Under the pieces are notes generated by a model. It was not told where the DNA came from, did no database searches, and saw nothing but the letters and a program-made list of their open reading frames with translations. A stretch of DNA of 64,000 nt from Naegleria gruberi. Lineage: Eukaryota. Where the stretch lies: the NCBI GenBank assembly GCA_000004985.1, contig GG738922.1; one strand, written 5' to 3'. Shown in pieces: positions 31,182 to 64,000 of this stretch (its first letter is position 1; each line of letters begins with the position of its first letter). Both the position numbers and the translations under genes were made by a program.

Positions 31182-34100
31182 ATGAAACAAACCATCTTCT
31201 TTTTCATATTACTATCATTTATTTTGCTGCTGCTGTCAATCTCTTCAACTGATGCCTGCAACTGCAATGGACGAGGACTTTGTAATATTCTTGCTAATAC
31301 TTGCGTTTGTAAAGATATTAATGCAGTGAATTCTCTATCTGGAGGTCAGACGCTAGCTGCTGGATCAGCACTCGTCTCATCGAATGGTTTATTCAGAGCA
31401 GAGATGCGAACAGATGGCACTTTCATTGTAATTGGAGGTGATGGACAGAATTATACGAGAACTGGAACAGCTGGTTCTGGATTGTTATTTACCACAAATG
31501 GAGTATTACAGATTGGACTCTCTATTATATCGACAGTGTTGAGTTTATTGAATTCTTCACCCATGTTAGTATTGAGAAATGATGGAGAATTGGCCATTTA
31601 TTCACAACCATTGCTTGGATCAGTTACTTTGGAATGGGGAAGTGGAACTGGAGCTGCTATTGCTCCAACAAGTGATGATTATTTATATGGAGGATCAAAT
31701 TGTGAAATTGCAAAATGTGGAGGTTTATTACCAAGTGCTCCACTTGTTTGTTCCAGTAAGGGAACATGTAATGGTTTGGGAGAGTGCATTTGTAGTGATG
31801 GATATTTTGGAGGATTGTGTAATGTATTGTCGTGTGCTGGGATTTCTCAATTGAATGGTTCGGTTTGTTCTGGAAAGGGAACTTGTGATGGTATGAATTT
31901 GTGTAATTGTCAAAATGGATTTTTGGGATCGACATGTGAAGCTTTTAAATGTTTCGACAAGTTTATGAATGATACTAATGTCTGTAATTTGGGATCTTGT
32001 TTGGGTCCTGATTTGTGTCAGTGTCCTTTAGGATATTTTGGTTTGAATTGCTCAATTCCTAAATGTTTCGGCTTACTGGGAAATGAAACTAATGTTTGTG
32101 GAGCAAAGGGTTCTTGCATTGCTCCAGATAAGTGCTTGTGCCAATCTGATATTCTTGGAGATGTTTGTAATGTTTTCAAATGTTTCAACAAACTTTCGAA
32201 TGAAACTAATGTCTGTGGAGGAAATGGGTCATGCATTGGATTAGACAAATGTTTGTGCAAAGATGGATTTTTTGGTGAGCTATGTGATAAGGTGAAATGT
32301 TTCGGCAAGCTTTCGAATGAAACTGGAGTGTGTGGTTTGGGTCAATGTATTGGAACTGATTTGTGTCAGTGTCCTTTAGGATACTTTGGTTTGAATTGTT
32401 CAATTCCTAAATGTTTCGGCTTACTGGGAAATGACACTAATGTTTGTGGAGGAAACGGTTCGTGTATTTCTCCTGATCAGTGTTTATGTAAAAGTGGCTT
32501 ATTTGGAGATTTATGTGATAAGGTGAAGTGTTTCGGCAAGCTTTCGAATGAATCAGGTGTCTGTGGTTTCGGTCAATGTATTGGAACTGACCTATGTCAA
32601 TGCTTACCTGGATACAGCGGAGAGAAATGTAATTTATTCAAATGTTTCAACAAATTCATGAACGATACCAATGTCTGCAACTTGGGAACTTGTTTGGGTC
32701 CTGATGTGTGTCAATGTCCATTGAATAAGTTTGGTCTTGATTGTTCCCTTTCGAATTGTTTCGGCATTCTCTCAAACGAAACCAATGTTTGTGGAGGAAA
32801 GGGCATTTGTACAGGACTAGATCAATGTCTATGTCAACCAGATGCCTTAGGTCCAGTTTGTAATGTTTTCAAGTGTTTCGGCCATTTATCCAACGAAACT
32901 AATGTATGTGGTTTCGGCCAATGTGTAGGAGCTGATATCTGTAGCTGTTTACCAGGTTATGGTGGTGAAAGATGTGACATTCTCAAATGTGGCAATTTCC
33001 TAGCAAACGAAACTGGTGTCTGTAATGGATTAGGTTTATGTACTCAACCTGGAAAGTGTCTCTGTAATCAAGTTGGTGTTTTGGGAGATTTATGTAATGT
33101 ATTCGATTGTTTTGGAAAGTTATCGAATCAATCAGGAGTTTGTGGTTTAGGTTCATGTATTTTACCAAATATTTGTAATTGTCCACTTGATGTATTTGGT
33201 TTCGAATGCAATGACTTTAAATGTGGTTTATTATGGAAAAACGAAAGTTCTGTATGTAATTCGAAAGGTTCATGTATTGGCCCTAATTTGTGTCAATGTT
33301 TGAATGGATATGGTGGTCAATTCTGCCAAGATTTTTCATGTTTTGGAAAAGTAGCTGGTGCTTGTTCCAATCAAGGTCAATGTATTGGACCTAATCAATG
33401 TCTTTGTAATGACAATTACTTTGGAAGTTTTTGTAACATTACAACATGTTTTACAAAATGGTCAAATTCAAGTAATCCTGCAGAGGTTTGTTCTGGAAGA
33501 GGACAATGTGTTGGTCTTGATTTATGTCAATGTATTGATGGGTTTGATGGACAAAATTGTCAGGTTGATTTGAGAATGTTTGGAGTTCAATTGAATTCTT
33601 CACAAAATGTGAATGTCATGTGGAATGACAAGTCAGATGTCAATTTGGTATTTTCCACACTTCCTGAACTGATTATTGAGCCACCTGTGTCAAATCCTCG
33701 ATTGAGATTTGAAGTAACTTGTTTGACTAATTGTGTGGGTAAAGATTCCTTCCTAGTTTCATCCAGTGTCATTAACCAATTGACTGGTCAATTCAACGTC
33801 CAGCTCAATACTTCCTTCTTGTTAGATTTGGGACTTCCAAACTTCCAATTCAAAGTTAAAGCATATTATGCTAACAATGCTCCATACGCCGAAAGATTTT
33901 CCAATTATCTCTACTTTAACATCAATGTTTCAGGAGGTTTACAAAAGATGAGATCTTTGGGAATTCCACAATATTTCATCAAGTCAAGTTTCCAATCAAC
34001 TGAGATAATTAACATTGATTCGACGATATTCGGCATGTATTTGGATAGAATTACTTATTACAACTTGGTCAAAAGTGTTTGCTCTTGGGGTTCTTGTTTA

Positions 34101-37100
34101 ACTCCTAGTCAACCGTTGAAGTTTAGTTTCATAGTTGATGAGGAAAAGACAAATTCAACATTTTCCAATATTTTAAATCAATCTGGTGATTTAATCATCA
34201 ATTCTCTTTCTCCAATAATTAATAATGATGGATTCACTCTTGTTGAAATTACTTTCCATAAGAGAAATATTGAACTTTCCAGAGATTTGACTCTTTATCA
34301 GGAAACTAAACAATTTAATCTTGGATTGAATATTTCCAATACAGATGGAATGAATCTAGATAGTTGGTTCATATCCATTCCAGTTTATTCCTTTTCAATT
34401 CCGACAAGTCCGTTATTCCAAGTTTCTCCATCAAGTGGTTTGGCATTGGATGTAGAATTTGATATTCAAATTAAACCTTGGTCAGTACCATCAGGATCTG
34501 GTATTCAATTGCAATATGCTATTGGATTTAGAGATGGATTGACAAGTGTCAGATTGTCAGAGTTCAGTACAAATACTTCACTTGACACTTACTTGCCATT
34601 CATTAGGCAAACTGAATCCAAGCAATCAACATTAGCTATGGTTCTGTTTGTTAAAGATTCTATTGGAAATGTCAGAACATTTACCGAAATTTCACAACAA
34701 GTTTCCATTACTGCCTTTAATGGAAATATTGAACAATTATTGGAAAAACTGAATACCATTGATGTTGCTTCCTATGATGAATCTTTCTCCTTCTTTAGTT
34801 CCATTTCAGATAAGAGAGAATTTATTAAGGGAGTTTTGAATAACGGACTTGAAATTGATACAACGTATCCTTCGTCTAGTTTAGTCAGATTGAGAAAACT
34901 TTCTCAAAATCAAACTCTATTGGATGAAGGAATAGTTTCATCTGTTTCCAAGAAAGTTGAATCGTTTGTTAATTCAACAAGTTTGAGTTATTTGAATGAA
35001 AAGAAATTATTGGGAAGAGTTCTAAACAAATTGTCAAGTGACAATTTGAATTCAACCTTGACAGTTACATCAAATATTTTGTCAAGCAAGTTGAATTATA
35101 AGAAATCAATTCAAGTTACAGAAGAATTATCAAGTATGGTACTTTTGGGTGAGGAAGCTATTTCAGTTTCGAATAATGCATCTTTACCAATTGTGGAATA
35201 TTCTCTTCCATCATTTACAATTTCAGTTTCAAGCTTTAGATTGGAATCAAAATCCAATTCAACAACTTCCTTCTCATTCCAAAATAGTATTTCACTCAAT
35301 TTGAATGATATTTTAACCTCTTACAATGGATTTACAAAAGATTCAGGTGTTTCTCTACTTGTTTACAATGATAATCCAGTTTCTGAGGAAAATTCCACTC
35401 AAAGTTCTCACATTAAGAACTTTAAATTCTTTATCGATAACTCTTTAACCATTTTACAAAATTTGAAAGAACCAATCGTCTTGTCTTTCCCAATTTTGGT
35501 AACCAACACTACAGGTTTCAACTTTTCATGCAAATATCTGGATGAAGTTGCCAATTTATGGAAATCTGATGGTTGCTCTTTGATTGGATCTGATTCATCC
35601 AATGCCTATTGTGCATGTACTCACACAACCATGTTTTCTACATTTTTGGAAAGAACCACAACCACAACAATTACACCAGGAAAACCACTCGATAGTAATA
35701 CTGCTCTCCTGTTAGCTCAAATTGCCTTTGGTGTTGTATTTTCCATAATTTCACTTGTTGGTCTTGTTTTCATTTCGATTAATAGAAACAAGCAACCAAT
35801 TAAGAGTAGATTTGTAACTCCATATTTGGGATTGAGTGCCTTGTTGATTGAATGTGTTTTGGCGTTTATTGTGCAGAGAAGTGTCTTGGTTGCTAACTTG
35901 TACGAAACTGATTCGAATGCCAAGAAGAATAATGATTATGCAGCAAACATTTTGGCTAATATTGTTACAATTATTGTAAACACGATCAACCTGACAGCAA
36001 TTTTGAGCTATTTGATCCAAGTAAGCAGATTCCAAATATTGAAATACCTCTACCATATTATGAGATCTCGTTCTGATCAGGAAATGGCAAAACAAATCAA
36101 GCATGTGAGAAGAATTTCATCCAACAAATTATTTGCAACAATTCTCTCAATCTTTGCCGTATTGAATGTTATTTATTGGACAGTGCTAGTTATTTTGTTA
36201 AGAACTGGAGTGTTGACTGCTGAAATTTACACCTACATTGTCTCAATTTCCTATTCTGCAATTATCATTCTTTTAGGAATTTGCATTAGTTCAGTAATTT
36301 TATTTGATGGAATTTCCTACATGTCCATTGAAAAGAAGAGAAGAAATTTGATCGATGCAGCAATGAGTAGAATTATGGGAAATTTGGGTTCAGAAAATGG
36401 TCAAAAAACCACCAGAGAATTCTTCCTTGTTAGACTAAAGAATTGGTTCACTAGTTTGGATGGTCCACTCTACTTTAGAGCTGAAATGATTTGTTTCTTG
36501 ATTAGTTTCTTCTTCCTTTTGGCTAATCAAATTATTGGATTGTCAACACTTTCACTCAGAAATCTTTCGAATAGTTCACAGACAGCTATTACCAATATTT
36601 CCATTGATACTTCTTTAATTGTCACAGATTCCTTAATATTTGCCTTTGAAATTTTATATGCCATTTGGTATGTGTTAGTGTTTGGAGGTTTGGCTTCCTT
36701 TATTTTCACCAAGATGAATATTCGTGCTCTATTGGAAGGCAAACTAAACTCCAAGAAGAAACAAAATCAAGGAAATCAGGTTGCTCTTGAGGAGTCTTCA
36801 GAATTGGGAGAAGATATGAAACGTGTCTTTGACGACCAAGATGGATACAACTTGTTTGAAGTGTATTGTATTAAGGAAATGGCCTCGGAGAATTTATATC
36901 TCTTCAAGGAATTACAATCTTCAGTCAGCTTAACCAGATCAGCAACCATTTCAGTACCAGACTTGTATGATCTCTTAACCAATGTCAGGAAAGTTTATAT
37001 TGCTTCTGGAGCCACTTGCGAAGTTAATATTTCTGCAAAATGTAGAAAGGAATTTGAAGCATTCTATTTTAGAGTTGAAAGAATGAAGAAATCAGAAATT

Positions 37101-37457
37101 CATGAAATTTTCAACTCAAATTCTTCAACTCCTCCAAAATCTGCAAACAATAAGAAGTATGTTCTCACATCATGGATCCACAAATCTCCAAGAGAAACTC
37201 ATCATTCCATAAGTTCAGAAACTGCTCTTGTTAATGGTCCTCCATCACCAAAGAGTACTGACTCAATTGATACACTCAAGGAAGGTGAGATGTTGACAAG
37301 TAGACAAGTGACTGAAGGTATTGAAACATTGAAACAGGAGGTGATTATTAATCTTGGAGATACCTTCTCTCGTTTCATTTTCACAAAGGAGTATAAGTTG
37401 CTTCAACAAACTTCCTTACAAAAAACTCAATTATTAGAAACAACAAACTTGGTTTAA
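31182..37457 (+). CDS. giant receptor: signal peptide - ~20 tandem EGF-like repeats - large extracellular region - GPS (GAIN-type) motif - 7TM - C-terminal RGS domain (adhesion-GPCR-like 7TM-RGS fusion)
   Basis: 2091-aa single exon with ATG at 31182. Signal peptide FFFILLSFILLLLSISS. EGF-like six-Cys units (CFGKLSNETNVCGGNGSCIGLDKCLCKDGFFGELC) run from about aa 170 to 790. GPS motif NFSCKYLDEVANLWKSDGCSLIGSDSSNAYCACTHTTMFSTF lies about 25 aa before the first of seven hydrophobic helices. The RGS-like domain is ...GYNLFEVYCIKEMASENLYLFKELQ...EVNISAKCRKEFEAFYFRVE. Confidence 0.8.
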   Translation: MKQTIFFFILLSFILLLLSISSTDACNCNGRGLCNILANTCVCKDINAVNSLSGGQTLAAGSALVSSNGLFRAEMRTDGTFIVIGGDGQNYTRTGTAGSGLLFTTNGVLQIGLSIISTVLSLLNSSPMLVLRNDGELAIYSQPLLGSVTLEWGSGTGAAIAPTSDDYLYGGSNCEIAKCGGLLPSAPLVCSSKGTCNGLGECICSDGYFGGLCNVLSCAGISQLNGSVCSGKGTCDGMNLCNCQNGFLGSTCEAFKCFDKFMNDTNVCNLGSCLGPDLCQCPLGYFGLNCSIPKCFGLLGNETNVCGAKGSCIAPDKCLCQSDILGDVCNVFKCFNKLSNETNVCGGNGSCIGLDKCLCKDGFFGELCDKVKCFGKLSNETGVCGLGQCIGTDLCQCPLGYFGLNCSIPKCFGLLGNDTNVCGGNGSCISPDQCLCKSGLFGDLCDKVKCFGKLSNESGVCGFGQCIGTDLCQCLPGYSGEKCNLFKCFNKFMNDTNVCNLGTCLGPDVCQCPLNKFGLDCSLSNCFGILSNETNVCGGKGICTGLDQCLCQPDALGPVCNVFKCFGHLSNETNVCGFGQCVGADICSCLPGYGGERCDILKCGNFLANETGVCNGLGLCTQPGKCLCNQVGVLGDLCNVFDCFGKLSNQSGVCGLGSCILPNICNCPLDVFGFECNDFKCGLLWKNESSVCNSKGSCIGPNLCQCLNGYGGQFCQDFSCFGKVAGACSNQGQCIGPNQCLCNDNYFGSFCNITTCFTKWSNSSNPAEVCSGRGQCVGLDLCQCIDGFDGQNCQVDLRMFGVQLNSSQNVNVMWNDKSDVNLVFSTLPELIIEPPVSNPRLRFEVTCLTNCVGKDSFLVSSSVINQLTGQFNVQLNTSFLLDLGLPNFQFKVKAYYANNAPYAERFSNYLYFNINVSGGLQKMRSLGIPQYFIKSSFQSTEIINIDSTIFGMYLDRITYYNLVKSVCSWGSCLTPSQPLKFSFIVDEEKTNSTFSNILNQSGDLIINSLSPIINNDGFTLVEITFHKRNIELSRDLTLYQETKQFNLGLNISNTDGMNLDSWFISIPVYSFSIPTSPLFQVSPSSGLALDVEFDIQIKPWSVPSGSGIQLQYAIGFRDGLTSVRLSEFSTNTSLDTYLPFIRQTESKQSTLAMVLFVKDSIGNVRTFTEISQQVSITAFNGNIEQLLEKLNTIDVASYDESFSFFSSISDKREFIKGVLNNGLEIDTTYPSSSLVRLRKLSQNQTLLDEGIVSSVSKKVESFVNSTSLSYLNEKKLLGRVLNKLSSDNLNSTLTVTSNILSSKLNYKKSIQVTEELSSMVLLGEEAISVSNNASLPIVEYSLPSFTISVSSFRLESKSNSTTSFSFQNSISLNLNDILTSYNGFTKDSGVSLLVYNDNPVSEENSTQSSHIKNFKFFIDNSLTILQNLKEPIVLSFPILVTNTTGFNFSCKYLDEVANLWKSDGCSLIGSDSSNAYCACTHTTMFSTFLERTTTTTITPGKPLDSNTALLLAQIAFGVVFSIISLVGLVFISINRNKQPIKSRFVTPYLGLSALLIECVLAFIVQRSVLVANLYETDSNAKKNNDYAANILANIVTIIVNTINLTAILSYLIQVSRFQILKYLYHIMRSRSDQEMAKQIKHVRRISSNKLFATILSIFAVLNVIYWTVLVILLRTGVLTAEIYTYIVSISYSAIIILLGICISSVILFDGISYMSIEKKRRNLIDAAMSRIMGNLGSENGQKTTREFFLVRLKNWFTSLDGPLYFRAEMICFLISFFFLLANQIIGLSTLSLRNLSNSSQTAITNISIDTSLIVTDSLIFAFEILYAIWYVLVFGGLASFIFTKMNIRALLEGKLNSKKKQNQGNQVALEESSELGEDMKRVFDDQDGYNLFEVYCIKEMASENLYLFKELQSSVSLTRSATISVPDLYDLLTNVRKVYIASGATCEVNISAKCRKEFEAFYFRVERMKKSEIHEIFNSNSSTPPKSANNKKYVLTSWIHKSPRETHHSISSETALVNGPPSPKSTDSIDTLKEGEMLTSRQVTEGIETLKQEVIINLGDTFSRFIFTKEYKLLQQTSLQKTQLLETTNLV
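31690..33552 (+). repeat. intragenic tandem array of EGF-like repeat codons (~114 nt unit, with a ~345-nt three-EGF block duplicated almost exactly)
   Basis: For example 31940-32100 and 32290-32460 are near-identical (CQCPLGYFGLNCSIPKCFGLLGNE/DTNVCG occurs twice). The unit is CF[GNK]KLSNETNVCGxGxCxGxDxCxCxxGxxGxxC. Confidence 0.6.
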
Positions 37458-55169: not shown

Positions 55170-56075
55170 ATGAGTCCTTGCTTGTTAACCGATAACGAAT
55201 TGATGTGTTCCGATACATTGATGCACTCATTTCTATTTCTTGATTTATCAACCATGATTGCTTCATGCTCTCTAGTTTCCAAACAATTCAATCGAGTGGC
55301 AAAGAGCAATCCAATATGGCAAATATTATATGACAAGTGGATGTTTGATAATATGAATGAATTTTACTGGACTTTTAATCATGAGGAATTTATTAATTGT
55401 TTTAAATTATCAAGTGATCAGGAAAATCGGGAAAATCTAGAAGATTGGACTGAACCAAATGACATGGGCCCTTTTTATTGGTTTCGTAAATGTATGGAAA
55501 TATTAGAATGTTTGCCAAGATTGGATTTGAAAGATGAGGAAGGTGAATATGAAACATTTTACTACCAACTGAATAATCGTAATGCAGCAACTGAATCCCA
55601 CTTAAAGTTGGCTACCATTTTGGCAATAATTTATGGTGACTATTCTTTTTCACTTCTTTCAGATTCTGTTGTGATTGCATTGAGAGGTTATTTGACAGAG
55701 AGTGAACAGGAGATTGTTTGTCCTCTTGCGACCTTTTGCATTATGATTTTGAAATCGTCCTATCTGGATTGCTTGGAACTACGAGAAACAGAGAATACTA
55801 ATCTTTGTGTGGCTCCATTTGTGAGTGGAATGTGGATGAATGGATTGATTGATGTTAAGGAATGTTGTTTCTTCAATGTTATGGACGCATGTGGCTATTA
55901 TAATCCATTAAATGGAGAGCTTTCCTATACAAATGAATCAGATGAAGGAGGATTTTCATGGTGTCCCAGATTCTTCAATGCAGGTGGTAGATATTATATC
56001 AACACGATTTGTGCATCCAATATTGGACCTAGTTCTATTAAAGTGGAGAAATCAGAACGTTTCGACTATTACTAG
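55170..56075 (+). CDS. F-box domain protein
   Basis: 301 aa with ATG at 55170. F-box-like N-terminus (DTLMHSFLFLDLSTMIASCSLVSKQFNRVAKSNPIWQILYDKW); the rest is unassigned. Confidence 0.55.
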   Translation: MSPCLLTDNELMCSDTLMHSFLFLDLSTMIASCSLVSKQFNRVAKSNPIWQILYDKWMFDNMNEFYWTFNHEEFINCFKLSSDQENRENLEDWTEPNDMGPFYWFRKCMEILECLPRLDLKDEEGEYETFYYQLNNRNAATESHLKLATILAIIYGDYSFSLLSDSVVIALRGYLTESEQEIVCPLATFCIMILKSSYLDCLELRETENTNLCVAPFVSGMWMNGLIDVKECCFFNVMDACGYYNPLNGELSYTNESDEGGFSWCPRFFNAGGRYYINTICASNIGPSSIKVEKSERFDYY

Positions 56076-56333
56076 ATATGGATGCACCAATATTTGAAGA
56101 TCTTTGAAAATTGAGTTCTGCATCAAGTAACAGATCCTTTCATTAGATTAAATTCACATTTATTTGAAAAATTAGTTTACAATGAACTTTAGGAGAGAAC
56201 TCTATCGGAAGAATTTGTCATCATTACCGATAATAGAACGATACGATTCGAGTCGAATATTAAAAATTTATGTAATTTTGAATTAATTTCCAAGCAATTA
56301 AAGGTTCGGGAATATTTGGAGAAGTATTGGAAG

Positions 56334-57198
56334 ATGGTCTTGTATCAATTTATTCATATTAGATTGGAAATTAATGAGGATGGAAAGGAGATGATTCAAC
56401 CAATCAATCCTTGGGATGTTTGGAAGAAAAAGGATCAAACATTACAGGAATTTGTGGAGAGGAAGAGGTCGTTTAAGAGAAGTTTTGCAATTTTGAATGA
56501 AATGGAAAGGAGAAACTATTTGAATACCAATAAGGCTAATTTTAAACTTTGCATAACTGGACCTGGTGGATCAGGAATTCATAGTTTCATTCATAGATAT
56601 TTAAATGATGTATTTTATGATCAATATGATTATTCAATAGATGACATATTTTACAAAACTATCCTATTTAATGAGAGAAAAGTTGAATTAGAAATTTGGG
56701 AGACTGGTTTTAGGAGTTCTGATTATTACTTGTTCCTGGAATGTAAGTTTCTATAATGTTGTGCAGTATTTACATGAATTAGCAAAACTAAAAGGAGCAA
56801 GGGGATATATTGTGCTTTTACCGATACATGCAGATGTTGACAAGTATGGGGTTTTTGAAAGAATTATTAAATCTATTGTATACATGCATGATGACGAATC
56901 AGTACCTTTATTAATAGGTATCACTCAAATTGATAAGTTGGAGACCAATAGCTCACTAAATTTGGATCAAGTTAAACAAAAAGTTACTGATATAATGAAT
57001 ATGTACTCGTGTTTGGATTTTGAAATTATTGAAACAAGTTCCAAGAGTAATATTAATATTCGTACAGTCATAGAAAAAGCCCTTCTAAAAGGATATTTCT
57101 TCGAAGGATCCAAATATTGCAATAGAAGATTATTATTGGAGAGGGTTATTAAATTAGATACCAAAGTATTCAATTCAAAAAAATGTTTAATTTCGTGA
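56334..57198 (+). CDS. divergent Ras-superfamily small-GTPase-like protein with degenerate G-motifs, two exons (56334..56742, 56783..57198)
   Basis: The track start at 56316 is TTG; the in-frame ATG is 56334. G1-like CITGPGGSGIHS, G3-like ELEIWETG, G4-like LLIGITQIDK (the NKxD position) and G5-like ETSSKSN. A 40-nt intron at 56743..56782 (GTAAGT...TTAG, phase 1) joins ...DYYLFLE|SKLKGARGYIVLL.... The choice of acceptor is uncertain. Confidence 0.5.
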
Positions 57199-57245
57199 TT
57201 ATACTCCAATACCAGCTCTATAATTATTAATTCAGACTGTTGTTT

Positions 57246-58499
57246 CTAAAATTGAATTGAAATATCAGAAAAATAAATGTCACCCAACTTATTTCTGAAT
57301 GCATAGGATGGCACACTGTAATCCAATTTCAAGATAAACAAGACATCATTGTTGGTAATATATACTATTTGATTTTCGTCCTTTCTTGTCTTGAAGAAGG
57401 CCATGAATGGAGGAAATAATTTGTGATGTTTCATTATAATTGCAGATTTCGAACATTTCAATAATTTTGTCTTTCTATCAACAATATTGCACTTGTAAAA
57501 CGAACCAGATGTGGAAACTAATAGTTGTTGCTTTGATTTGAATTCCCTCAAATGAGGTGGAATTTCCAAAATGTATGAATTTTCTGGATATTCAAATTGA
57601 ATAAACTGTCTCTTGTCAATATTTTCTGCAAAATCCATAATGTGAATCTTTTGACAATCGTAAAATGTCGAACCATAAAGAGCTACCTTATTTCCATCTG
57701 AAATAGGAGCTGCCATTTTTGACTGAATCTCACTATTTTCCACTAGAATAGGTTCCTCAATACTGATCAAGCCCACTCTCACCTCTTCATCCATGAACAT
57801 ATTTTCCAAATCTCTAAAACTGCACAATGAAATATAGAATGGTCCATAGTATTGAGAGGCAGAATGGCAAATTAGAAATTGATCATCATTTTGAGAAATT
57901 GCAAATTTCACTTGATCGTAATGATGATTGATGGAAACATCTTTCATTTTCCAAGAAAGAGTTTTTAAACTTAGACTGGCAACCCATGATTTGGACCATC
58001 CTCTTCCAAAAACATAGATTGCTTGGTTTCGTTTAGAATAGATCATATTTCCAAATATGCATGTGAAATTTTCCTTCTCAAAAACTTGATTATTTGTTGT
58101 CTGAATCGGTTTCCAATCATATTCAAAACTTGTATCTAATCCTCCATCTTTTGAATATTTGGTGGCAGGATCCAAGTCAAGCATTAACAATGTTTTCTGA
58201 TATCCCAATTCGAAACTCGATCCACCAAACGAAACTAATGTAGGACTCTTTGTAAGAATGTTTTCTCTGTCCAATAACGTCAAAACTGTCAAATTTCTAT
58301 TCAATCCGTAATGAATATATGGAACTAGGAGCATATCATTGGCAAGACTCATCAACGGAGGTTTTGGAATGAAAGGATTATTATACGAATCTTGATCCGA
58401 TTGTTGCGAAGATTCAACAGGAGCCAATTCGAATCTTTTCTTTCGTTTACGTTGTTCAGACAATGTGATAGAGGCCTGTGGGGGAGGTGGTGGAATCAT
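57246..58499 (-). CDS. hypothetical protein with polyproline N-terminus (MIPPPPPQ...)
   Basis: The track start at 58517 is TTG; the ATG is at 58497-58499. 417 aa, single exon, no recognised domain. Confidence 0.5.
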   Translation of the reverse strand: MIPPPPPQASITLSEQRKRKKRFELAPVESSQQSDQDSYNNPFIPKPPLMSLANDMLLVPYIHYGLNRNLTVLTLLDRENILTKSPTLVSFGGSSFELGYQKTLLMLDLDPATKYSKDGGLDTSFEYDWKPIQTTNNQVFEKENFTCIFGNMIYSKRNQAIYVFGRGWSKSWVASLSLKTLSWKMKDVSINHHYDQVKFAISQNDDQFLICHSASQYYGPFYISLCSFRDLENMFMDEEVRVGLISIEEPILVENSEIQSKMAAPISDGNKVALYGSTFYDCQKIHIMDFAENIDKRQFIQFEYPENSYILEIPPHLREFKSKQQLLVSTSGSFYKCNIVDRKTKLLKCSKSAIIMKHHKLFPPFMAFFKTRKDENQIVYITNNDVLFILKLDYSVPSYAFRNKLGDIYFSDISIQF

Positions 58500-58618
58500 T
58501 TTTTTTAATATTTTCAAAGTTCTTTAGTTCATTTACTTTCAATGGTTGACTTTTGACGTGTGTTTTATTACAAATTTAATGGCCAAACATTTACAAAGAA
58601 ACCTGTGGGATGCATCAA

Positions 58619-59668
58619 TTAATCACTAGTCGATGCACTTGCAACAATGAAAACTTCCTTATCATAATTATAACTAGTCATTGCATGACAGCCCCAAAAT
58701 TCCATTCCTGTACACCAATATCTCGACCATGTTTCATCACCATTTTGTAAGTAATGATTCCATGAATAGTGTTCTGAATTATTTCCATACAAGTATTCTA
58801 TTAAATTTTGAGTTTCTTTGGATGCATCTTGCATTCCATAAGGTGGTGATGAACAATCTTTGAAAATGTTTTCCCATCCTTCTTCTGGTTCAGCATTTTG
58901 TAAAGTTTCATTAAATGAAATTACAATTTCATTGTTGAATGATAATGAAACATATTTTGGCAATTTCCGATTTGAAGTTAGTTGTTTAAAGTTATTTAAC
59001 ATGGATAGAAATGCATTTCCAATATTCATCCTTTTTGAATGTCTAAAATCAGAAATTTTGTAAACAATTGTTGATTTCCAATCGAAAGAAACCTCTGATT
59101 TGGAAAGTAAAATCAAAACTTGACTAGCATCATAATAATTATATGGATTACCAAGTTGTGAACAGACGTGTTTCATTAGCATGAATTTGTGTAAGGAAAT
59201 TATCAAATTTTCCTTCACAATTCCTTTCTCATTATTACAATGATAGAATTTCAATAATTTTTTCAATAGCTCACATGGAGAATAAAGTGAAATTCCAACA
59301 ACACCTCCCTTTTCAGAATATTTAGTATAATCTTCATGAATAAATTCCTCCTCACTCAATAATTTCAATACAAAATCCTTCATTAATGCTTTACAATGAG
59401 TCTCATTATTTTTTGAACAATTGTCGTAAATTAGTGAATTGAATAATTCATCATCACCAGCACGATCGGAAGGAAAATTCAATAAATTATTTAAAAATTG
59501 TTTAAAGTGATAAGAAAATAATAATTTATCCAATTTTGGATTTGTTACTAGTTCATTAAAGGTTCTACACGTCAACGGAATGGAATTTAGCAATGATCTT
59601 AAATCTAGATATGAAAATATAAGAATAAATAGGTCGGCATTCAAGTTGTTATAAAGCGATGGCGACAT
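58619..59668 (-). CDS. F-box domain protein
   Basis: 349 aa with ATG at 59666-59668. Strong F-box at aa 10-50 (LNADLFILIFSYLDLRSLLNSIPLTCRTFNELV). Confidence 0.6.
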   Translation of the reverse strand: MSPSLYNNLNADLFILIFSYLDLRSLLNSIPLTCRTFNELVTNPKLDKLLFSYHFKQFLNNLLNFPSDRAGDDELFNSLIYDNCSKNNETHCKALMKDFVLKLLSEEEFIHEDYTKYSEKGGVVGISLYSPCELLKKLLKFYHCNNEKGIVKENLIISLHKFMLMKHVCSQLGNPYNYYDASQVLILLSKSEVSFDWKSTIVYKISDFRHSKRMNIGNAFLSMLNNFKQLTSNRKLPKYVSLSFNNEIVISFNETLQNAEPEEGWENIFKDCSSPPYGMQDASKETQNLIEYLYGNNSEHYSWNHYLQNGDETWSRYWCTGMEFWGCHAMTSYNYDKEVFIVASASTSD

Positions 59669-59732
59669 TTTTTTAAAGATCAGATTTGTTCTGAAAATGC
59701 ACGAATAAAAATTTCATGGCTCGCCACGTTTA

Positions 59733-59803
59733 CCGTCTCGGGAGGAATCGAACCTCCGTCAATGGATTCAAAGTCCACTATGCTACCATTACACCACGAG
59801 ACG
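59733..59803 (-). tRNA. tRNA-Gln (anticodon TTG)
   Basis: The reverse complement CGTCTCGTGGTGTAATGGTAGCATAGTGGACTTTGAATCCATTGACGGAGGTTCGATTCCTCCCGAGACGG resembles eukaryotic tRNA-Gln-TTG. Acceptor CGTCTCG/CGAGACG, anticodon loop CTTTGAA, T-arm GGAGG-TTCGATT-CCTCC. Confidence 0.85.
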
Positions 59804-59906
59804 AGCTCATTGATCTGAAATTGTATGTTATGAAAAATACTTTACCATAGCTGGAATAAAAATATATTTGTTTGTTTTCTCTTTTATCTTGTTTCAATAT
59901 GATTTG

Positions 59907-61188
59907 TTACCACTCAAGAGAAAGGTCAATCAACTGTGGCATACTTTCGAATAATTGATAATCATCTTCTATTAGCTGATTATCCCTAATTTCAAGCGTT
60001 GCTAAATGACTCAAATTAGCAGAGCATAATGATTTGACACCCTCAACTCCAATATTATTCTCTTCCAAATGCAAACTAGTCAATGATTTCAATTCACACA
60101 AATACTTTACACCCTCATCTCCAATATCATTTTCATTAATCCACAACTCTTTCAACTGCTTCATTCCACTAACAATCTTACAACCTTCAACACCAAATAA
60201 ATTAGTATTGACGTTGAGCTTTGTTAATTGTTTCAATTCTGTTAAGTATGAAAGCCCTTCAATATCTAAATAAATTTCGTATACTTCAAGTGCCGTCAAC
60301 TGTTTCATTTCAGATAAATACTTTGCACCTTCGTTTCTAATATCATTATACGATATATTGAGATACGTCAATTTAGGTAACTCGTTAGAAATCAATTCTG
60401 CACTTTTTTTTGTTATTCCAGTATTCCGCAAGTCAAGATGGGTTAACTGTTTCATTTTACATAAATGAACTAAGCCTTCATCAGTAATTATATTATTACT
60501 AATGCACAACAATGTTAAATTTTTCAATTTGGTTAGTGAGATACCACCTTCAACTGTCAAATTGTTGTTTTGTATGTGTAATTCTCTTAAATTATCCAAT
60601 TCACTAATAATTTTAGCTCCTTCATTTCCAATTTAATTGTAACCAACTTCGAGTGTTGTTAATTTTTTCAAATTTCCTAAATATCTAGCTCCTTCAAGAC
60701 CTATATCAGGGCCATGGAATACATAGTGCTCATTATAATGCAAATCTAGAAACGCTAATGTATCTTACTCCTTCACCTCGAATATTATTCCCAGAAATAT
60801 CAAGATAGGTCAATTGATCCATTTTCCCAATAAATACAGCTCCTTCAGCTCCAATATTATTGAAATCAATATCAAGCTTGGTTAAATGTTTCAATTGACT
60901 AATGAATCTAGCACCTGCAGTACCAATTTCACTACTTGTAATATCCAAACTTTTCAACTGTTCAAATTGAGTAATATTTGTTAATTCCGTAATATTCTTA
61001 TAATCAATTTTCAAATCTACGACACAATTCTTAAATTTACTCTTGCTCATCAAGTGCAATTTTTGATCATTGAATTGTATTTTGTTAAAATCGATTGATA
61101 ATTTTATCATGTCAATAATCAATTCGTTCCACTCCTTGGAAATTAATGAACATTTAGAAATAATGATATGTGAATCGAGGAAGGACAT
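59907..61188 (-). pseudogene. ribonuclease-inhibitor-type LRR protein gene disrupted by a frameshift (~60736-60764) and an in-frame TAA (60633-60635); probable pseudogene or sequence error
   Basis: Track ORFs 60733..61188 (ATG at 61188) and 59907..60599 belong to one LRR series. Reading the downstream ORF frame upstream gives perfect LRRs, AFLDLHYNEHYVFHGPDIGLEGARYLGNLKKLTTLEVGYN*IGNEGAKIISELDNLRELHIQNNNLTVEGG..., with TAA exactly where a residue of the LxxLxLxxNxIGxEGA unit is expected. The upstream ORF ends ...GEGVRYISVSRFAL* in the other frame. Confidence 0.6.
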
Positions 61189-61729: not shown

Positions 61730-64000
61730 ATGTCAAACAAGTTTATAAGAGATTGGTTGGCTTGTGTGGTGATTCTATTCCTTCTTTGTTCTGTTTCAAA
61801 TGCTGGTAGCTTGGCAATTGTTTGTATTCCTGGCGAGTACATTAGTGGTAGTGCTTGTCTAGATTGTCCAGGAGGCACCTATTCAAGTGGCATGACGACA
61901 TCTTGCTCTGATTGTTCAGCTGGTTATTATTCTGAAGTAGGCTCAACAAGTTCTGACTGCTCTATATGTGCTGCTGGAACTTACTCAAATAATAGAGCCT
62001 CAAGTTGTACTAACTGTGCAGGTGGAACATATTCAGCTGGTGGAGCTTCGAGTTGTACCAGTTGCTCAGCAGGTTATTATTCAAGTGCTGGCTCGTCATC
62101 ATGTTATCAATGTGGAGCTGGAACTTATTCAACTGGTGGAGCTTCAAGTTGTACTAACTGTGCAGCTGGTTATTATTCATCGACTGTTGGAGCAACAAGT
62201 TCCTCAGTTTGTTTGATGTGCAGTGCAGGAACATATTCCACAATATCAGTTGCTGGTGGAGCTTCGAGTTGTACTAGTTGCTCAGCTGGTTACTATTCAA
62301 GTGCTGGAGCATCATCATGTTCTCAATGTGGAGCTGGTACTTATTCAGCTGTTAGCTCATCAAGTTGTACCAATTGTGCAGCTGGTTCATATTCAAGTGC
62401 TGGCTCATCCAGCTGTACTAGTTGTTCAGCTGGTTATCGTTCAAGTGCTGGGTCTTCTTCTTGCTCCCAATGTGGTGCTGGTACTTACTCAGCTGGTGGA
62501 GCTTCGAGTTGTACCAGTTGTTCAGCAGGTTATTATTCAAGTGCTGGCTCGTCATCATGTTCTCAATGTGGAGCTGGAACATACTCAGCTGGTGGAGCTT
62601 CAAGTTGCACTAATTGTGGAGCAGGTACTTATTCTTCGACAGTTGGAGGAACAAGCTCCTCAGTTTGCTTAAATTGTGTAGCTGGTACTTATTCCACAAT
62701 TTCAGGAGCAACTAGTGCCACAGTGTGTCAAAATTGTAATGCAGGAAGTTTTTCAACTGGTGGCTCATCCAGTTGTACCAATTGTGCAGCAGGTTATTAT
62801 TCAGCTTCAGGTTCCTCATCATGTTCTCAATGTGGAGCTGGAACATATTCAACTGGTGGTTCATCAAGTTGTGCAAGTTGTGCAGCTGGTTCATATTCAA
62901 GTGCTGGTTCTTCCAGCTGCACTAGTTGTTCAGCAGGTTACTATTCAAATCCTGGTTCGTCATCATGTTCCCAATGTGGAGCTGGTACTTATTCAAGTAC
63001 TGGCTCATCTAGTTGTACTAGTTGCTCAGCAGGTTATTATTCAAACTCAGGTTCTTCATCATGTTCTCAATGCGGAGCTGGAACATATTCGACTGGAGGG
63101 TCCTCAGGTTGTACCAGTTGCTCTGCAGGTTATTATTCAAGCGCTGGTTCTTCTTCTTGCTCTCAATGTGGAGCTGGTACTTATTCAACTGGTGGAGCTT
63201 CCAGCTGTACTAGTTGCTTAGCTGGTTATTATTCAAGTGCTGGCTCTTCCTCTTGCTCCCAATGTGGAGCTGGAACTTACTCAACTGGTGGCTCATCCAG
63301 TTGCACTAATTGTGGAGCAGGTACTTATTCATCAACACCTGGCGCCACAAACGCTGGAGTTTGCTTGACATGTTCTGCTGGTTACTATTCAAGCGTTGGT
63401 GCCTCGTCTTGCTCTAAATGTTCTGCTGGTACTTATTCAAGTAGTGGCTCATCAAGTTGTACTAATTGTGCAGCTGGATATTATTCAACCTCAGGTTCTT
63501 CATCATGTTCTCAATGTGGGGCAGGAACATATTCGACTGGAGGGTCCTCAAGTTGTACCAGTTGCTCAGCTGGTTATTATTCAAGTGCTGGCTCGTCATC
63601 ATGTTCTCAATGTGGAGCTGGTACTTATTCAAGTACTGGCTCATCTAGTTGTACTAGTTGCTCAGCAGGTTATTATTCAACTTCAGGTTCTTCATCATGT
63701 TCTCAATGCGGAGCTGGAACATATTCGACTGGAGGGTCCTCGAGTTGTACCATTTGCTCAGCTGGTTATCGTTCAAGTGCTGGGTCTTCTTCTTGCTCTC
63801 AATGTGGAGCTGGAACATTTTCGACTGGTGGCTCTTCAAGTTGTGCAAATTGTACAGCTGGTTCATATTCAAGTGTGGGCTCTTCCAACTGTACTAGCTG
63901 CTTAGCAGGTTATTATTCAAGCACTGGTTCGTCATCATGTTCTCAATGTGGAGCTGGTACTTATTCAACTAGTGCCTCATCAAACTGTTCCAGTTGTGGA
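61730..64000 (+). CDS. secreted cysteine-rich tandem-repeat protein with ephrin-receptor-like (GCC2/GCC3-type) CxxC...AGxYS modules; 3' end lies beyond the window
   Basis: ATG at 61730 then signal peptide MSNKFIRDWLACVVILFLLCSVSNA. The same frame stays open for more than 750 codons to the window end. Over 35 consecutive ~19-aa modules of the form C[TS][NS]C[SA]AG[YS]YSSAGSSSC / SQCGAGTYSTGG[AS]SSC. The track omits it because there is no stop in the window. Confidence 0.75.
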   Translation, partial: MSNKFIRDWLACVVILFLLCSVSNAGSLAIVCIPGEYISGSACLDCPGGTYSSGMTTSCSDCSAGYYSEVGSTSSDCSICAAGTYSNNRASSCTNCAGGTYSAGGASSCTSCSAGYYSSAGSSSCYQCGAGTYSTGGASSCTNCAAGYYSSTVGATSSSVCLMCSAGTYSTISVAGGASSCTSCSAGYYSSAGASSCSQCGAGTYSAVSSSSCTNCAAGSYSSAGSSSCTSCSAGYRSSAGSSSCSQCGAGTYSAGGASSCTSCSAGYYSSAGSSSCSQCGAGTYSAGGASSCTNCGAGTYSSTVGGTSSSVCLNCVAGTYSTISGATSATVCQNCNAGSFSTGGSSSCTNCAAGYYSASGSSSCSQCGAGTYSTGGSSSCASCAAGSYSSAGSSSCTSCSAGYYSNPGSSSCSQCGAGTYSSTGSSSCTSCSAGYYSNSGSSSCSQCGAGTYSTGGSSGCTSCSAGYYSSAGSSSCSQCGAGTYSTGGASSCTSCLAGYYSSAGSSSCSQCGAGTYSTGGSSSCTNCGAGTYSSTPGATNAGVCLTCSAGYYSSVGASSCSKCSAGTYSSSGSSSCTNCAAGYYSTSGSSSCSQCGAGTYSTGGSSSCTSCSAGYYSSAGSSSCSQCGAGTYSSTGSSSCTSCSAGYYSTSGSSSCSQCGAGTYSTGGSSSCTICSAGYRSSAGSSSCSQCGAGTFSTGGSSSCANCTAGSYSSVGSSNCTSCLAGYYSSTGSSSCSQCGAGTYSTSASSNCSSCG
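61900..64000 (+). repeat. near-identical 114-nt (2 x 57) coding tandem repeats
   Basis: Example: tgtaccagttgctcagcaggttattattcaagtgctggctcgtcatcatgttctcaatgtggagctgg.acttattca recurs with 90-100% identity at ~62040, 62270, 62510, 62930, 63060, 63540 and 63650. Other-frame and antisense track ORFs here (QVVLTVQLV..., MFSWLSFKCW...) are artefacts of the repeat. Confidence 0.8.

What the first reader, a model, noticed from the sequence alone, without database searches (positions are those of the whole stretch)
61730..64000. Signal-peptide gene made of more than 35 near-identical 57/114-nt repeats encoding ephrin-receptor-like CxxC modules, truncated by the window edge
The nucleotide identity between repeat units is about 90-100%. 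That is far higher than protein-level constraint requires, and it points to recent expansion or ongoing concerted evolution (unequal crossing-over or gene conversion). Such arrays are classic for surface-coat or variant-antigen-like proteins, and they are commonly collapsed or mis-sized in assemblies. The gene has no stop before nt 64000, so its true length and any C-terminal anchor or kinase part are unknown. Every alternative-frame ORF across this region in the six-frame track is a by-product of the repeat.
Basis: seen in the sequence. Interest (0 to 1): 0.65.

Follow-up and report, generated by a model that had tools for sequence, protein, structure and literature searches.

The report
Repeat-rod ectodomain of Naegleria 7TM-RGS receptor
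The repeat array is real, but it is the diverged, disulfide-rich outer stalk of an already catalogued Naegleria gruberi surface receptor (seven membrane helices plus a G-protein-silencing domain), not a fast-evolving coat-protein gene, so it is an ordinary new member of a described family.

Summary
The window is Naegleria gruberi NEG-M nuclear DNA. An ORF starts at ATG 61730, encodes a plausible signal peptide, and stays open to base 64000. It holds 43 complete C-x2-C units and the start of a 44th, and matches Pfam Ephrin_rec_like at E=7e-65.

- The period is 48/96 nt (16/32 aa), not 57/114.
- Unit identity averages 67% (73-77% within each of the two alternating unit types), not 90-100%. Only 1.5% of unit pairs reach 90%.
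- Third codon positions match at 0.59 against 0.82-0.87 for positions 1 and 2, and four-fold sites differ in 41-49% of comparisons. The array is old and protein-constrained, not homogenised.

The full product is the GenBank "predicted protein" EFC37054 / NAEGRDRAFT_75241 (2065 aa). Its order is:
- signal peptide
- 51 C-x2-C units
- EGF-like module
- glycosylated stalk
- GAIN/GPS
- seven TM helices
- C-terminal RGS domain

It is therefore an adhesion-GPCR-like 7TM-RGS receptor. Bosch et al. 2022 described this family in N. fowleri (28 members, RGS domains shown to be GAPs).

A paralog at 31182-37457 in the same window shares the stalk-GPS-7TM-RGS half but carries EGF repeats instead.

Verdict: new member of a known kind, with low interest.

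The parts
61730..64000 (+). First 756 codons (of 2065) of N. gruberi gene NAEGRDRAFT_75241 / EFC37054.1 / D2W1J3. The CDS runs off the window. If it has no introns it would end near 67927 in window-equivalent coordinates.
   Evidence: Open frame with no stop. Residues 1-756 of P0249 match residue for residue. Accession.
61730..61804 (+). Signal peptide coding region (aa 1-25, MSNKFIRDWLACVVILFLLCSVSNA)
   Evidence: Hydrophobic core with KD 2.29. S-x-A before the predicted cleavage site (sequence). Inferred; no predictor was run.
61805..61855 (+). N-terminal cap of the cysteine-rich rod (aa 26-42, GSLAIVCIPGEYISGSA)
   Evidence: It is part of the high-confidence AF2 model.
61856..63985 (+). 43 complete C-x2-C units: 37 of 16 aa / 48 nt, five of 20 aa, one of 18 aa. 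Two unit types alternate (CTSCSAGYYSSAGSSS and CSQCGAGTYSTGGSSS), giving the 96-nt period. A 456-nt super-repeat is marked by the 20-aa unit pairs.
   Evidence: Unit table. TRF periods 48/96/144/192/456. Pfam PF07699 E=7e-65. AF2 pLDDT 90.5. Foldseek best match is MST1.
63986..64000 (+). Start of unit 44 (CSSCG...), cut by the window edge. Seven more units follow in the full protein, 51 in all, ending near aa 893.
63479..63766 (+). Youngest internal duplication seen. 96-nt blocks 192 nt apart are 93.8% identical, inside the TRF 192-nt period 63377-63872 (83% matches).
31182..37457 (+). Paralogous 7TM-RGS receptor gene NAEGRDRAFT_59845 / EFC37047.1 (2091 aa, one uninterrupted ORF). It has the same stalk-GPS-7TM-RGS half, but its N-terminal array is made of EGF / teneurin-EGF repeats.
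   Evidence: ORF. Pfam EGF_TEN, EGF_2 and weak RGS. BLASTP 29% identity over about 1070 aligned columns (about 930 residues of P0249), E=2e-110. GPS 28.3 bits. Accession.

Best explanation
The array encodes the membrane-distal part of the ectodomain of a Naegleria gruberi adhesion-type 7TM-RGS receptor (NAEGRDRAFT_75241, 2065 aa).

Shown:
- After a signal peptide, 51 C-x2-C units of the Ephrin_rec_like / GCC2-GCC3 type are predicted to fold into a long, thin, disulfide-laddered rod. Its closest solved relative is the cysteine-rich tandem of the Chlamydomonas mastigoneme protein MST1.
- The chain continues through an EGF-like module, an N-glycosylation-rich stalk of about 600 aa, a GAIN-like domain ending in a GPS motif just before TM1, seven TM helices, and a cytoplasmic RGS domain that keeps the Galpha-contact residues.

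Inferred mechanism:
- The rod holds a binding or force-bearing surface roughly 50 nm from the membrane, if the ~11 A rung spacing of MST1 applies.
- Contact with prey, substrate or another cell is passed through GAIN/GPS and the 7TM bundle.
- That changes the access or activity of the RGS GAP towards Naegleria Galpha subunits, some of which self-activate. Signalling is thus tuned by GTP hydrolysis rather than by nucleotide exchange, as proposed for AtRGS1 and the N. fowleri 7TM RGS proteins.

At the DNA level the array is an old tandem expansion with a few later block duplications. It is held by purifying selection on Cys, Gly and Tyr positions, not by ongoing homogenisation.
For: Organism: four neighbouring ORFs are exact matches to N. 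gruberi NEG-M proteins on one 209,908-bp scaffold.

Full-length product: P0249 aligns 1-756 to 1-756 at 1450 bits. Sequence, accession.

Domains:
- Ephrin_rec_like in 21 stretches, and RGS PF00615 at 37.8 bits against a cut-off of 23.9.
- GPS PF01825 at 38.3 bits against a cut-off of 22.5 when the region is scanned alone. The paralog scores 28.3 and the Willaertia relative 29.6.
- Seven hydrophobic helices between aa 1588 and 1896. AF2 secondary structure shows seven long helices.

GAIN domain:
- A four-sequence profile hits the GAIN regions of ADGRG2 (5.5e-8), ADGRF1, ADGRL3, ADGRG1 and latrophilin-1.
- The top 11 Foldseek hits of the model are all adhesion-GPCR GAIN structures (CD97 at 2.5e-8, BAI3, CL1 and others).

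RGS domain: the SxENL and EVN motifs align to RGS4 and RGS5.

Rod:
- AF2 pLDDT is 90.5.
- Foldseek gives MST1 8wa2 at E=7.6e-16 and TMq up to 0.64, then ELAPOR1. By sequence, phmmer gives MST1 8tx1 at E=8e-39.
- MST1 has a disulfide ladder with ~11 A spacing (PMC10602792).

Family precedent: N. fowleri has 28 7TM RGS proteins, many with GPS plus EGF or lectin ectodomains, and their RGS domains are GAPs for Nf Galpha subunits (PMC9283941).

Same chassis in relatives: the window paralog is a single 2091-aa ORF, and Willaertia P0399 has the same layout.

Array age.
Against: - DNA beyond base 64000 could not be fetched. The C-terminal 1309 aa therefore rest on the deposited gene model, not on sequence I read.
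- The AF2 model of the GAIN-7TM-RGS part is low confidence (pLDDT 50.8, pTM 0.33, four-sequence alignment).
- The 7TM region matches no Pfam family, so its GPCR class is unknown.
- The GPS has H-T-T where the canonical autoproteolysis site is H-L|T/S, so cleavage is uncertain.
- No ligand, expression, localisation or GAP data exist for this protein.
- The signalling direction and the mechanosensing idea are inference from relatives.
- No ortholog in N. fowleri or N. lovaniensis was retrieved, though search sensitivity was limited.
Confidence: 0.8

Rival explanations
1. One reading: a surface-coat or variant-antigen-like gene whose near-identical repeats are kept uniform by recent expansion or concerted evolution, with copy number likely variable and possibly mis-assembled.
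For: - A secreted, Ser/Gly/Cys-rich C-x2-C array superficially resembles Giardia VSPs and ciliate surface antigens.
- Identical amino acids share the same codon more often than array-wide codon usage predicts (0.54-0.63 against 0.43).
- A few younger block duplications exist (93.8% over 96 nt).
Against: - Mean unit identity is 67-77%, and only 1.5% of pairs reach 90%.
- Four-fold sites differ in 41-49% of comparisons, and identity does not decay with distance.
- The protein continues into GPS-7TM-RGS, not a single-pass anchor or GPI signal.
- No second array of this type lies elsewhere in the 64-kb window.
Confidence: 0.04
2. Gene-model fusion artefact: the array is a separate secreted repeat protein, and the deposited 2065-aa model wrongly joins it to a downstream GPS-7TM-RGS gene.
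For: I could not read the DNA beyond 64000. N. gruberi models are automated 'predicted proteins'. Relative P0398 looks like a truncated model.
Against: - The in-window paralog has the same order (Cys-rich array, stalk, GPS, 7TM, RGS) in one uninterrupted 6.3-kb ORF.
- Willaertia P0399 has the same layout.
- The array-to-EGF-to-stalk junction of P0249 aligns with the corresponding junction of the paralog (second HSP).
Confidence: 0.08
3. Structural filament or extracellular-matrix protein of the mastigoneme (MST1) type, used as a building block of a surface fibre rather than as a receptor.
For: MST1 is the best solved match by both sequence and fold. Naegleria has a flagellate stage.
Against: - The match covers only MST1's cysteine-rich tandem.
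- The Ig-like domains and polyproline-II helix that define MST1 (PMC10602792) are absent.
- This protein has seven TM helices and an RGS domain.
Confidence: 0.03
4. Assembly artefact: the array length in the scaffold is collapsed or inflated.
For: Tandem arrays are a known source of mis-assembly. No read data were available to me.
Against: - Units differ by 23-33% on average, and the longest exact internal repeat is 73 nt. Reads of a few hundred bases place uniquely.
- The frame stays open through all 43 units.
- The 152-aa super-repeat structure is regular.
Confidence: 0.05

Closest known systems
Naegleria fowleri 7TM RGS proteins (Bosch et al. 2022, J Biol Chem 298:102167; 28 genes, e.g. Nf 7TM RGS2-4)
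   Same: - Same genus.
- Same layout: a large modular ectodomain, a GPS motif, seven TM helices and a C-terminal RGS domain.
- Their RGS domains were shown to be GAPs for Nf Galpha subunits.
   Different: - The ectodomains described there are EGF-like repeats and lectin domains. An Ephrin_rec_like array of about 850 aa is not mentioned.
- No direct ortholog was identified here.
- Nothing has been tested for the N. gruberi protein.
Arabidopsis AtRGS1 and other 7TM-RGS proteins of 'bikonts' (Urano 2012; Bradford 2013; de Mendoza 2014, PMC3971589)
   Same: A seven-TM domain fused to a cytoplasmic RGS domain. The receptor is thought to act as a regulated GAP on self-activating Galpha.
   Different: AtRGS1 has essentially no ectodomain and no GPS/GAIN (my knowledge). 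There is no detectable sequence similarity in the 7TM part.
Metazoan adhesion GPCRs (ADGRL/latrophilin, ADGRB/BAI, ADGRE5/CD97, ADGRG)
   Same: A long repeat-built ectodomain, with a GAIN domain and GPS immediately before TM1. Pfam GPS is above cut-off, and both profile and fold hits go to GAIN structures.
   Different: - The 7TM bundle does not match 7tm_2.
- The output is a fused RGS (GAP), not G-protein activation.
- The GPS reads H-T-T instead of H-L-T/S.
Chlamydomonas mastigoneme protein MST1 (PDB 8tx1, 8wa2, 9b4h), cysteine-rich 'ephrin-receptor-like' tandem
   Same: It is the best solved homolog of the repeat rod (phmmer E=8e-39, Foldseek E=7.6e-16, TMq up to 0.64). It has the same disulfide-ladder architecture.
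   Different: MST1 is a filament subunit with Ig-like domains and a polyproline-II helix. It has no TM, GPS or RGS.
ELAPOR1 and the Eph receptor cysteine-rich domain (Pfam PF07699 founders), TNFR-type CRDs
   Same: The same Pfam repeat family. ELAPOR1 is hit by sequence (E=4e-10) and by fold (E=2e-4).
   Different: - Those proteins carry only one or a few modules, against 51 tandem units here.
- Eph CRD and TNFR fold matches are weak (E about 0.1-0.3).
- There is no ephrin-binding domain, FN3 domain or kinase.
Giardia VSPs / high-cysteine membrane proteins
   Same: Secreted, C-x2-C-rich extracellular arrays in a protist (my knowledge).
   Different: VSPs are single-pass proteins with a conserved CRGKA tail and belong to a large variant family. 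This protein has seven TM helices plus an RGS domain, and its repeats are diverged.

Membership tests
Ephrin_rec_like / GCC2_GCC3 repeat (Pfam PF07699) | Score above Pfam's gathering threshold | tested here: met
   215 bits against 23.1, E=7e-65, 15 stretches in the window part. 21 stretches in the full protein.
Ephrin_rec_like / GCC2_GCC3 repeat (Pfam PF07699) | Regular C-x2-C ... G-x-[YF] spacing, with cysteines invariant across homologs | tested here: met
   Unit table. Cys and Gly columns are invariant in a 13-sequence alignment.
Ephrin_rec_like / GCC2_GCC3 repeat (Pfam PF07699) | Fold like solved members (disulfide-laddered beta-hairpin stack) | tested here: met
   AF2 pLDDT 90.5. Foldseek gives MST1 at 7.6e-16 and ELAPOR1 at 2e-4. 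The Eph CRD matches only at E about 0.1-0.4.
Eph receptor tyrosine kinases | Ephrin-binding domain, FN3 repeats, single TM and cytoplasmic kinase | tested here: not met
   The Pfam scan of the full protein finds none of these. The C-terminus is 7TM plus RGS.
7TM-RGS receptors | C-terminal RGS domain (PF00615) above threshold | tested here: met
   37.8 bits against 23.9, aa 1911-2046. PDB RGS5/RGS2/RGS4 hits at E about 1e-4. Profile hit to RGS5 at 2.8e-8.
7TM-RGS receptors | Seven transmembrane helices N-terminal to the RGS domain | tested here: met
   Seven hydropathy peaks between aa 1588 and 1896. Seven long helices in the AF2 secondary structure, from a low-confidence model. They are conserved in the paralog and in Willaertia.
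7TM-RGS receptors | Galpha-contact residues of the RGS box conserved (RGS4 E87/N88, N128) | tested here: met
   'SEFSTENL' aligns with RGS4 'SEYSEENI', and 'EVNI' aligns with RGS4 'EVNL'. The residue roles come from the RGS4-Gialpha1 structure 1AGR (my knowledge).
7TM-RGS receptors | GAP activity on a cognate Galpha | not testable with these tools
   Shown only for N. fowleri relatives (PMC9283941).
Adhesion GPCRs (class B2) | GPS motif (PF01825) immediately before TM1 | tested here: met
   38.3 bits against 22.5, four Cys at 1524/1539/1551/1553, about 35 aa before TM1.
Adhesion GPCRs (class B2) | GAIN domain fold (helical subdomain A plus beta-sandwich subdomain B) | tested here: inconclusive
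   Profile hits reach 130-230 residues of ADGRG2 and ADGRL3 GAIN. All top-11 Foldseek hits are GAIN structures. The model itself has pLDDT of only about 55-80 in that part and 50.8 overall.
Adhesion GPCRs (class B2) | Canonical autoproteolysis triad H-L|T/S | tested here: not met
   The sequence is C-G-C-N-H-T-T-S-F. All four heterolobosean relatives have H-T-T. Cleavage cannot be judged from sequence.
Adhesion GPCRs (class B2) | Secretin-like 7TM domain (Pfam 7tm_2) | tested here: not met
   The 7TM region has no Pfam family even at E<=10. PDB profile matches stop after TM1.
Variant surface antigens (Giardia VSP type) | Single C-terminal TM with a short conserved tail; large family of near-identical variants | tested here: not met
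   The protein has 7TM plus RGS. Its 90%-identity cluster has one member. Only three relatives of the non-repeat half were found.

The most novel reading that the evidence does not exclude
Heteroloboseans may carry a GAIN/GPS-gated receptor family whose output is a fused GAP (RGS) rather than G-protein activation. It would have a conserved non-canonical H-T-T GPS and interchangeable rod-like ectodomains (Ephrin_rec_like, EGF, NHL, RCC1-like). If the roughly 50-nm disulfide-ladder rod works as a force-bearing lever on a tethered-agonist-type GAIN switch, that would show that adhesion-GPCR-style mechanosensing predates, or arose independently of, metazoan class B2 receptors. It would also show that such a switch can be wired to switch G proteins off rather than on.
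Probability: 0.2. Interest if true: 0.6.

Novelty: new member of a known kind. Interest (0 to 1): 0.25.

Why it matters
The result gives a functional reading to an unannotated N. gruberi "predicted protein". It also shows that the modular ectodomain repertoire of Naegleria 7TM-RGS receptors includes a very long Ephrin_rec_like rod, alongside the EGF and lectin modules described for N. fowleri.

It corrects a tempting misreading. High amino-acid regularity in C-x2-C arrays does not imply near-identical DNA or concerted evolution.

The two paralogs 24 kb apart, with swapped ectodomains on one chassis, are a neat case of domain shuffling in a receptor family. That is an incremental point and does not answer any open question.

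Tried and rejected
- Extending the contig failed. The look-up of encoding contigs found no record for three look-ups of two neighbouring genes. N. gruberi DNA does not seem to be in that index.
- The search for homologous proteins with the 756-aa fragment and with the N-terminal 184 aa did not return the self protein. The listed subject lengths stop at about 1.75x the query, which looks like an undocumented length cap. The exhaustive HMMER search then found the self protein.
- The third homology search, with aa 861-2065, found only three proteins and missed the in-window paralog. The family size in Naegleria could therefore not be estimated.
- The whole-protein Pfam scan missed the GPS motif. 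It appeared only when the region was scanned alone.
- Literature searches for 'Naegleria + ephrin' and 'Naegleria gruberi + cysteine-rich repeat surface' returned nothing relevant.
- A relationship to Eph receptors proper, to TNFR CRDs and to the NCD3G domain was considered. I rejected these as overlapping matches to the same Cys pattern.
- Mastigoneme function was considered and rejected on architecture.
- I did not use the prokaryotic, viral or metagenome contig scans, because they cannot contain the Naegleria scaffold.
Full report
**Source of the window.** Four ORFs next to the finding are exact matches to Naegleria gruberi NEG-M proteins that all sit on one 209,908-bp scaffold:
- 44980-46533(-): EFC37093, Sof1/DCAF13
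- 49721-50731(-): EFC37096
- 51192-52577(+): EFC37050
- 55170-56075(+): EFC37053

The neighbourhood is typical intron-poor eukaryotic DNA at about 33% GC, with F-box/LRR, WD40, PWI and TPR genes. The last 2 kb rise to 44.7% GC, which coincides with the repeat array.

**Checking the observation.** The gene start and the open frame hold up.
- ATG 61730 follows in-frame stops about 10 codons upstream. The frame is open for 756 codons to the window edge.
- The N-terminus (MSNKFIRDWLACVVILFLLCSVSNA|GS) looks like a signal peptide. No predictor was available, so this is a reading of the sequence.
- Splitting the product at each C-x2-C gives 43 complete units plus the start of a 44th. Thirty-seven are 16 aa, five are 20 aa and one is 18 aa.
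- Two unit types alternate (CTSCSAGYYSSAGSSS and CSQCGAGTYSTGGSSS).

The DNA period is 48 nt, with a stronger 96-nt period. TRF also sees 144-, 192- and 456-nt periods. Self-identity by offset is 0.61 at 96 and 0.55 at 48, against 0.33 at 57 and 0.38 at 114.

The claimed 90-100% identity is also wrong.
- The 666 pairs of 16-aa units average 67%. Within unit types the means are 77% and 73%. Only 1.5% of pairs reach 90%.
- The best 96-nt block pair is 93.8% (63479 vs 63671). The longest exact internal repeat is 73 nt.

**Age of the array.**
- Within unit types, identity by codon position is 0.82-0.87 at position 1, 0.84-0.85 at position 2, and 0.59 at position 3.
- Chance identity at third positions, given their composition, is 0.39. 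Four-fold sites differ in 41-49% of comparisons, a Jukes-Cantor distance of about 0.6-0.8.
- Identity does not fall with distance between units.
- Identical residues share the same codon somewhat more often than array-wide codon usage predicts (0.54-0.63 against 0.43). That fits common ancestry plus a few later block duplications.

Overall this is an old array under purifying selection on the protein, not one being homogenised. The four alternative ORFs in the region all lie in one shifted frame inside the CDS, and that frame has 11 stops.

**What the repeats are.**
- Pfam gives Ephrin_rec_like PF07699 at E=7e-65 in 15 stretches. The NCD3G and ELAPOR1-TNFR matches overlap it on the same cysteine pattern.
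- An AlphaFold2 model of aa 26-345, built with a 13-sequence alignment, is confident (pLDDT 90.5). It shows a strictly periodic stack of tiny beta-bridges.
- Its best solved matches are the cysteine-rich tandem of the Chlamydomonas mastigoneme protein MST1 (Foldseek E=7.6e-16, TMq up to 0.64) and then ELAPOR1. Eph-receptor CRDs and TNFR CRDs match only weakly.
- Sequence search of the PDB agrees: MST1 at E=8e-39 and ELAPOR1 at E=4e-10.
- In MST1 this tandem carries a ladder of disulfides spaced about 11 A apart (PMC10602792). By analogy, 51 units would make a rod of roughly 50 nm. This is inference.
- Such arrays are very common. 25,127 cluster representatives match at E<=1e-3 and 2,581 at E<=1e-30, many of them 2,000-7,900 aa long.

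**The rest of the gene.** I could not fetch DNA beyond base 64000. The exhaustive HMMER search returned a 2065-aa protein whose first 756 residues are those of the window ORF. It is EFC37054.1 / XP_002669798.1 / D2W1J3 / NAEGRDRAFT_75241, a "predicted protein".

| Region of the protein | Evidence |
|---|---|
| Array ends after 51 units, near aa 893 | |
| EGF-like module | |
| About 600 aa with 20 N-glycosylation sequons | |
| Four-cysteine motif CMYWDETFSIWSTEGCTLVGWSNSSVFCGCNHTTSF | |
| Seven hydrophobic helices, aa 1588-1896 | |
| RGS domain, PF00615, 37.8 bits against 23.9 | |

- Scanned alone, the four-cysteine motif is a Pfam GPS at 38.3 bits against a cut-off of 22.5.
- A profile of the four available relatives hits the GAIN regions of ADGRG2, ADGRL3, ADGRF1, ADGRG1 and latrophilin-1, as well as RGS5/3/16/4.
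- An AlphaFold2 model of aa 1280-2065 is of low confidence (pLDDT 50.8). Its secondary structure is a helical subdomain, then about 13 strands, then seven long helices, then a helical bundle.
- The top 11 Foldseek hits of that model are all adhesion-GPCR GAIN structures. RGS domains follow.
- The RGS box keeps the SxENL and EVN motifs that align to RGS4 and RGS5.
- The 7TM bundle matches no Pfam family.
- The GPS reads H-T-T rather than the canonical H-L-T/S, in all four relatives.

**Relatives.**
- The window itself holds a paralog at 31182-37457(+): EFC37047, 2091 aa, one uninterrupted ORF. It shares the stalk-GPS-7TM-RGS half (29% identity, E=2e-110). Its distal array is built of EGF/teneurin-EGF repeats.
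- Another N. gruberi protein has NHL plus EGF modules and looks like a truncated model.
- A Willaertia magna protein has RCC1-like plus EGF modules on the same chassis.
- The paralog's single ORF argues against the idea that the focal 2065-aa model is a fusion of two genes.

**Comparison with the literature.**
- 7TM-RGS proteins are known in plants and many protists (PMC3971589).
- Bosch et al. 2022 (PMC9283941) listed 28 of them in N. fowleri.
- They noted GPS motifs and EGF or lectin ectodomains "reminiscent of adhesion GPCRs".
- They showed that several of the RGS domains are GAPs for Nf Galpha subunits, including self-activating ones.

The present gene is therefore a new member of a described family. 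Its particular feature is an Ephrin_rec_like rod of about 850 aa, which is not mentioned in that paper.

**Mechanism.**
- Shown: a secreted N-terminus, the rod fold, the GPS/GAIN-like region, seven helices and the RGS domain.
- Inferred: the rod presents a binding or force-bearing surface far from the membrane. GAIN and the 7TM bundle pass the event inward. The RGS domain's GAP action on Galpha is modulated as a result.
- Unknown: whether the H-T-T GPS cleaves, and what the ligand is.

**Verdict.** The array, the signal peptide, the module type and the truncation are correct, while the period and the identity are wrong. The module family is right, but concerted evolution, the coat-antigen reading and a kinase part are not supported. 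Novelty is "new member of a known kind", and interest is low at about 0.25.

Noticed in passing
window 31182-37457 (+): A second giant 7TM-RGS receptor gene (EFC37047 / NAEGRDRAFT_59845, 2091 aa, a single ORF) lies 24 kb upstream on the same strand. It shares the stalk-GPS-7TM-RGS half with the focal gene (29% identity, E=2e-110), but its distal array is made of EGF/teneurin-EGF repeats. This looks like ectodomain swapping on one chassis.
   Followed up: partly
P0249 aa 1551-1559; window paralog product aa ~1477-1485 (within window 31182-37457); P0398, P0399: All four heterolobosean relatives have C-x-C-[NTS]-H-T-T-[SM]-F at the GPS, so Thr sits at the -1 position where adhesion GPCRs have Leu. 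The motif is conserved but non-canonical, and its cleavage competence is unknown.
   Followed up: partly
window 55170-61188 and 22527-24272: A cluster of F-box and F-box/LRR genes: 55170-56075, 58619-59668, 59907-60599 with 60733-61188, and 22527-24272. The two LRR ORFs at 59907-60599 and 60733-61188 (-) look like exons of one gene split by an intron of about 130 nt.
   Followed up: no
window 49721-50731 (-): The fatty-acid desaturase-like protein EFC37096 shares a >=90%-identity cluster with a second N. gruberi protein (EFC35901) on a separate 12.5-kb contig. This could be a recent duplicate or an unmerged haplotig.
   Followed up: no
window 62001-64000: GC content jumps to 0.447 from a background of about 0.33, with strong negative AT skew (-0.23). 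The jump coincides with the repeat array. Gly, Ala and Cys together make up about 40% of the mature product, and third codon positions are 53% T.
   Followed up: yes
homologs (e.g. P0015, P0078, P0126, P0138, P0170): The hits most identical to the repeat region (50-57%) are metagenome proteins. Many of them also carry PF09479 (Listeria-Bacteroides repeat), and two carry the source name 'MAG... [bacterium]'. The same 16-aa module therefore seems to occur in bacterial surface proteins too. I did not examine direction or convergence.
   Followed up: no
tool behaviour: The subjects listed by the search for homologous proteins never exceeded about 1.75x the query length. This hid the 2065-aa self protein when I queried with the 756-aa fragment. 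It matters for anyone extending truncated ORFs with this tool.
   Followed up: partly
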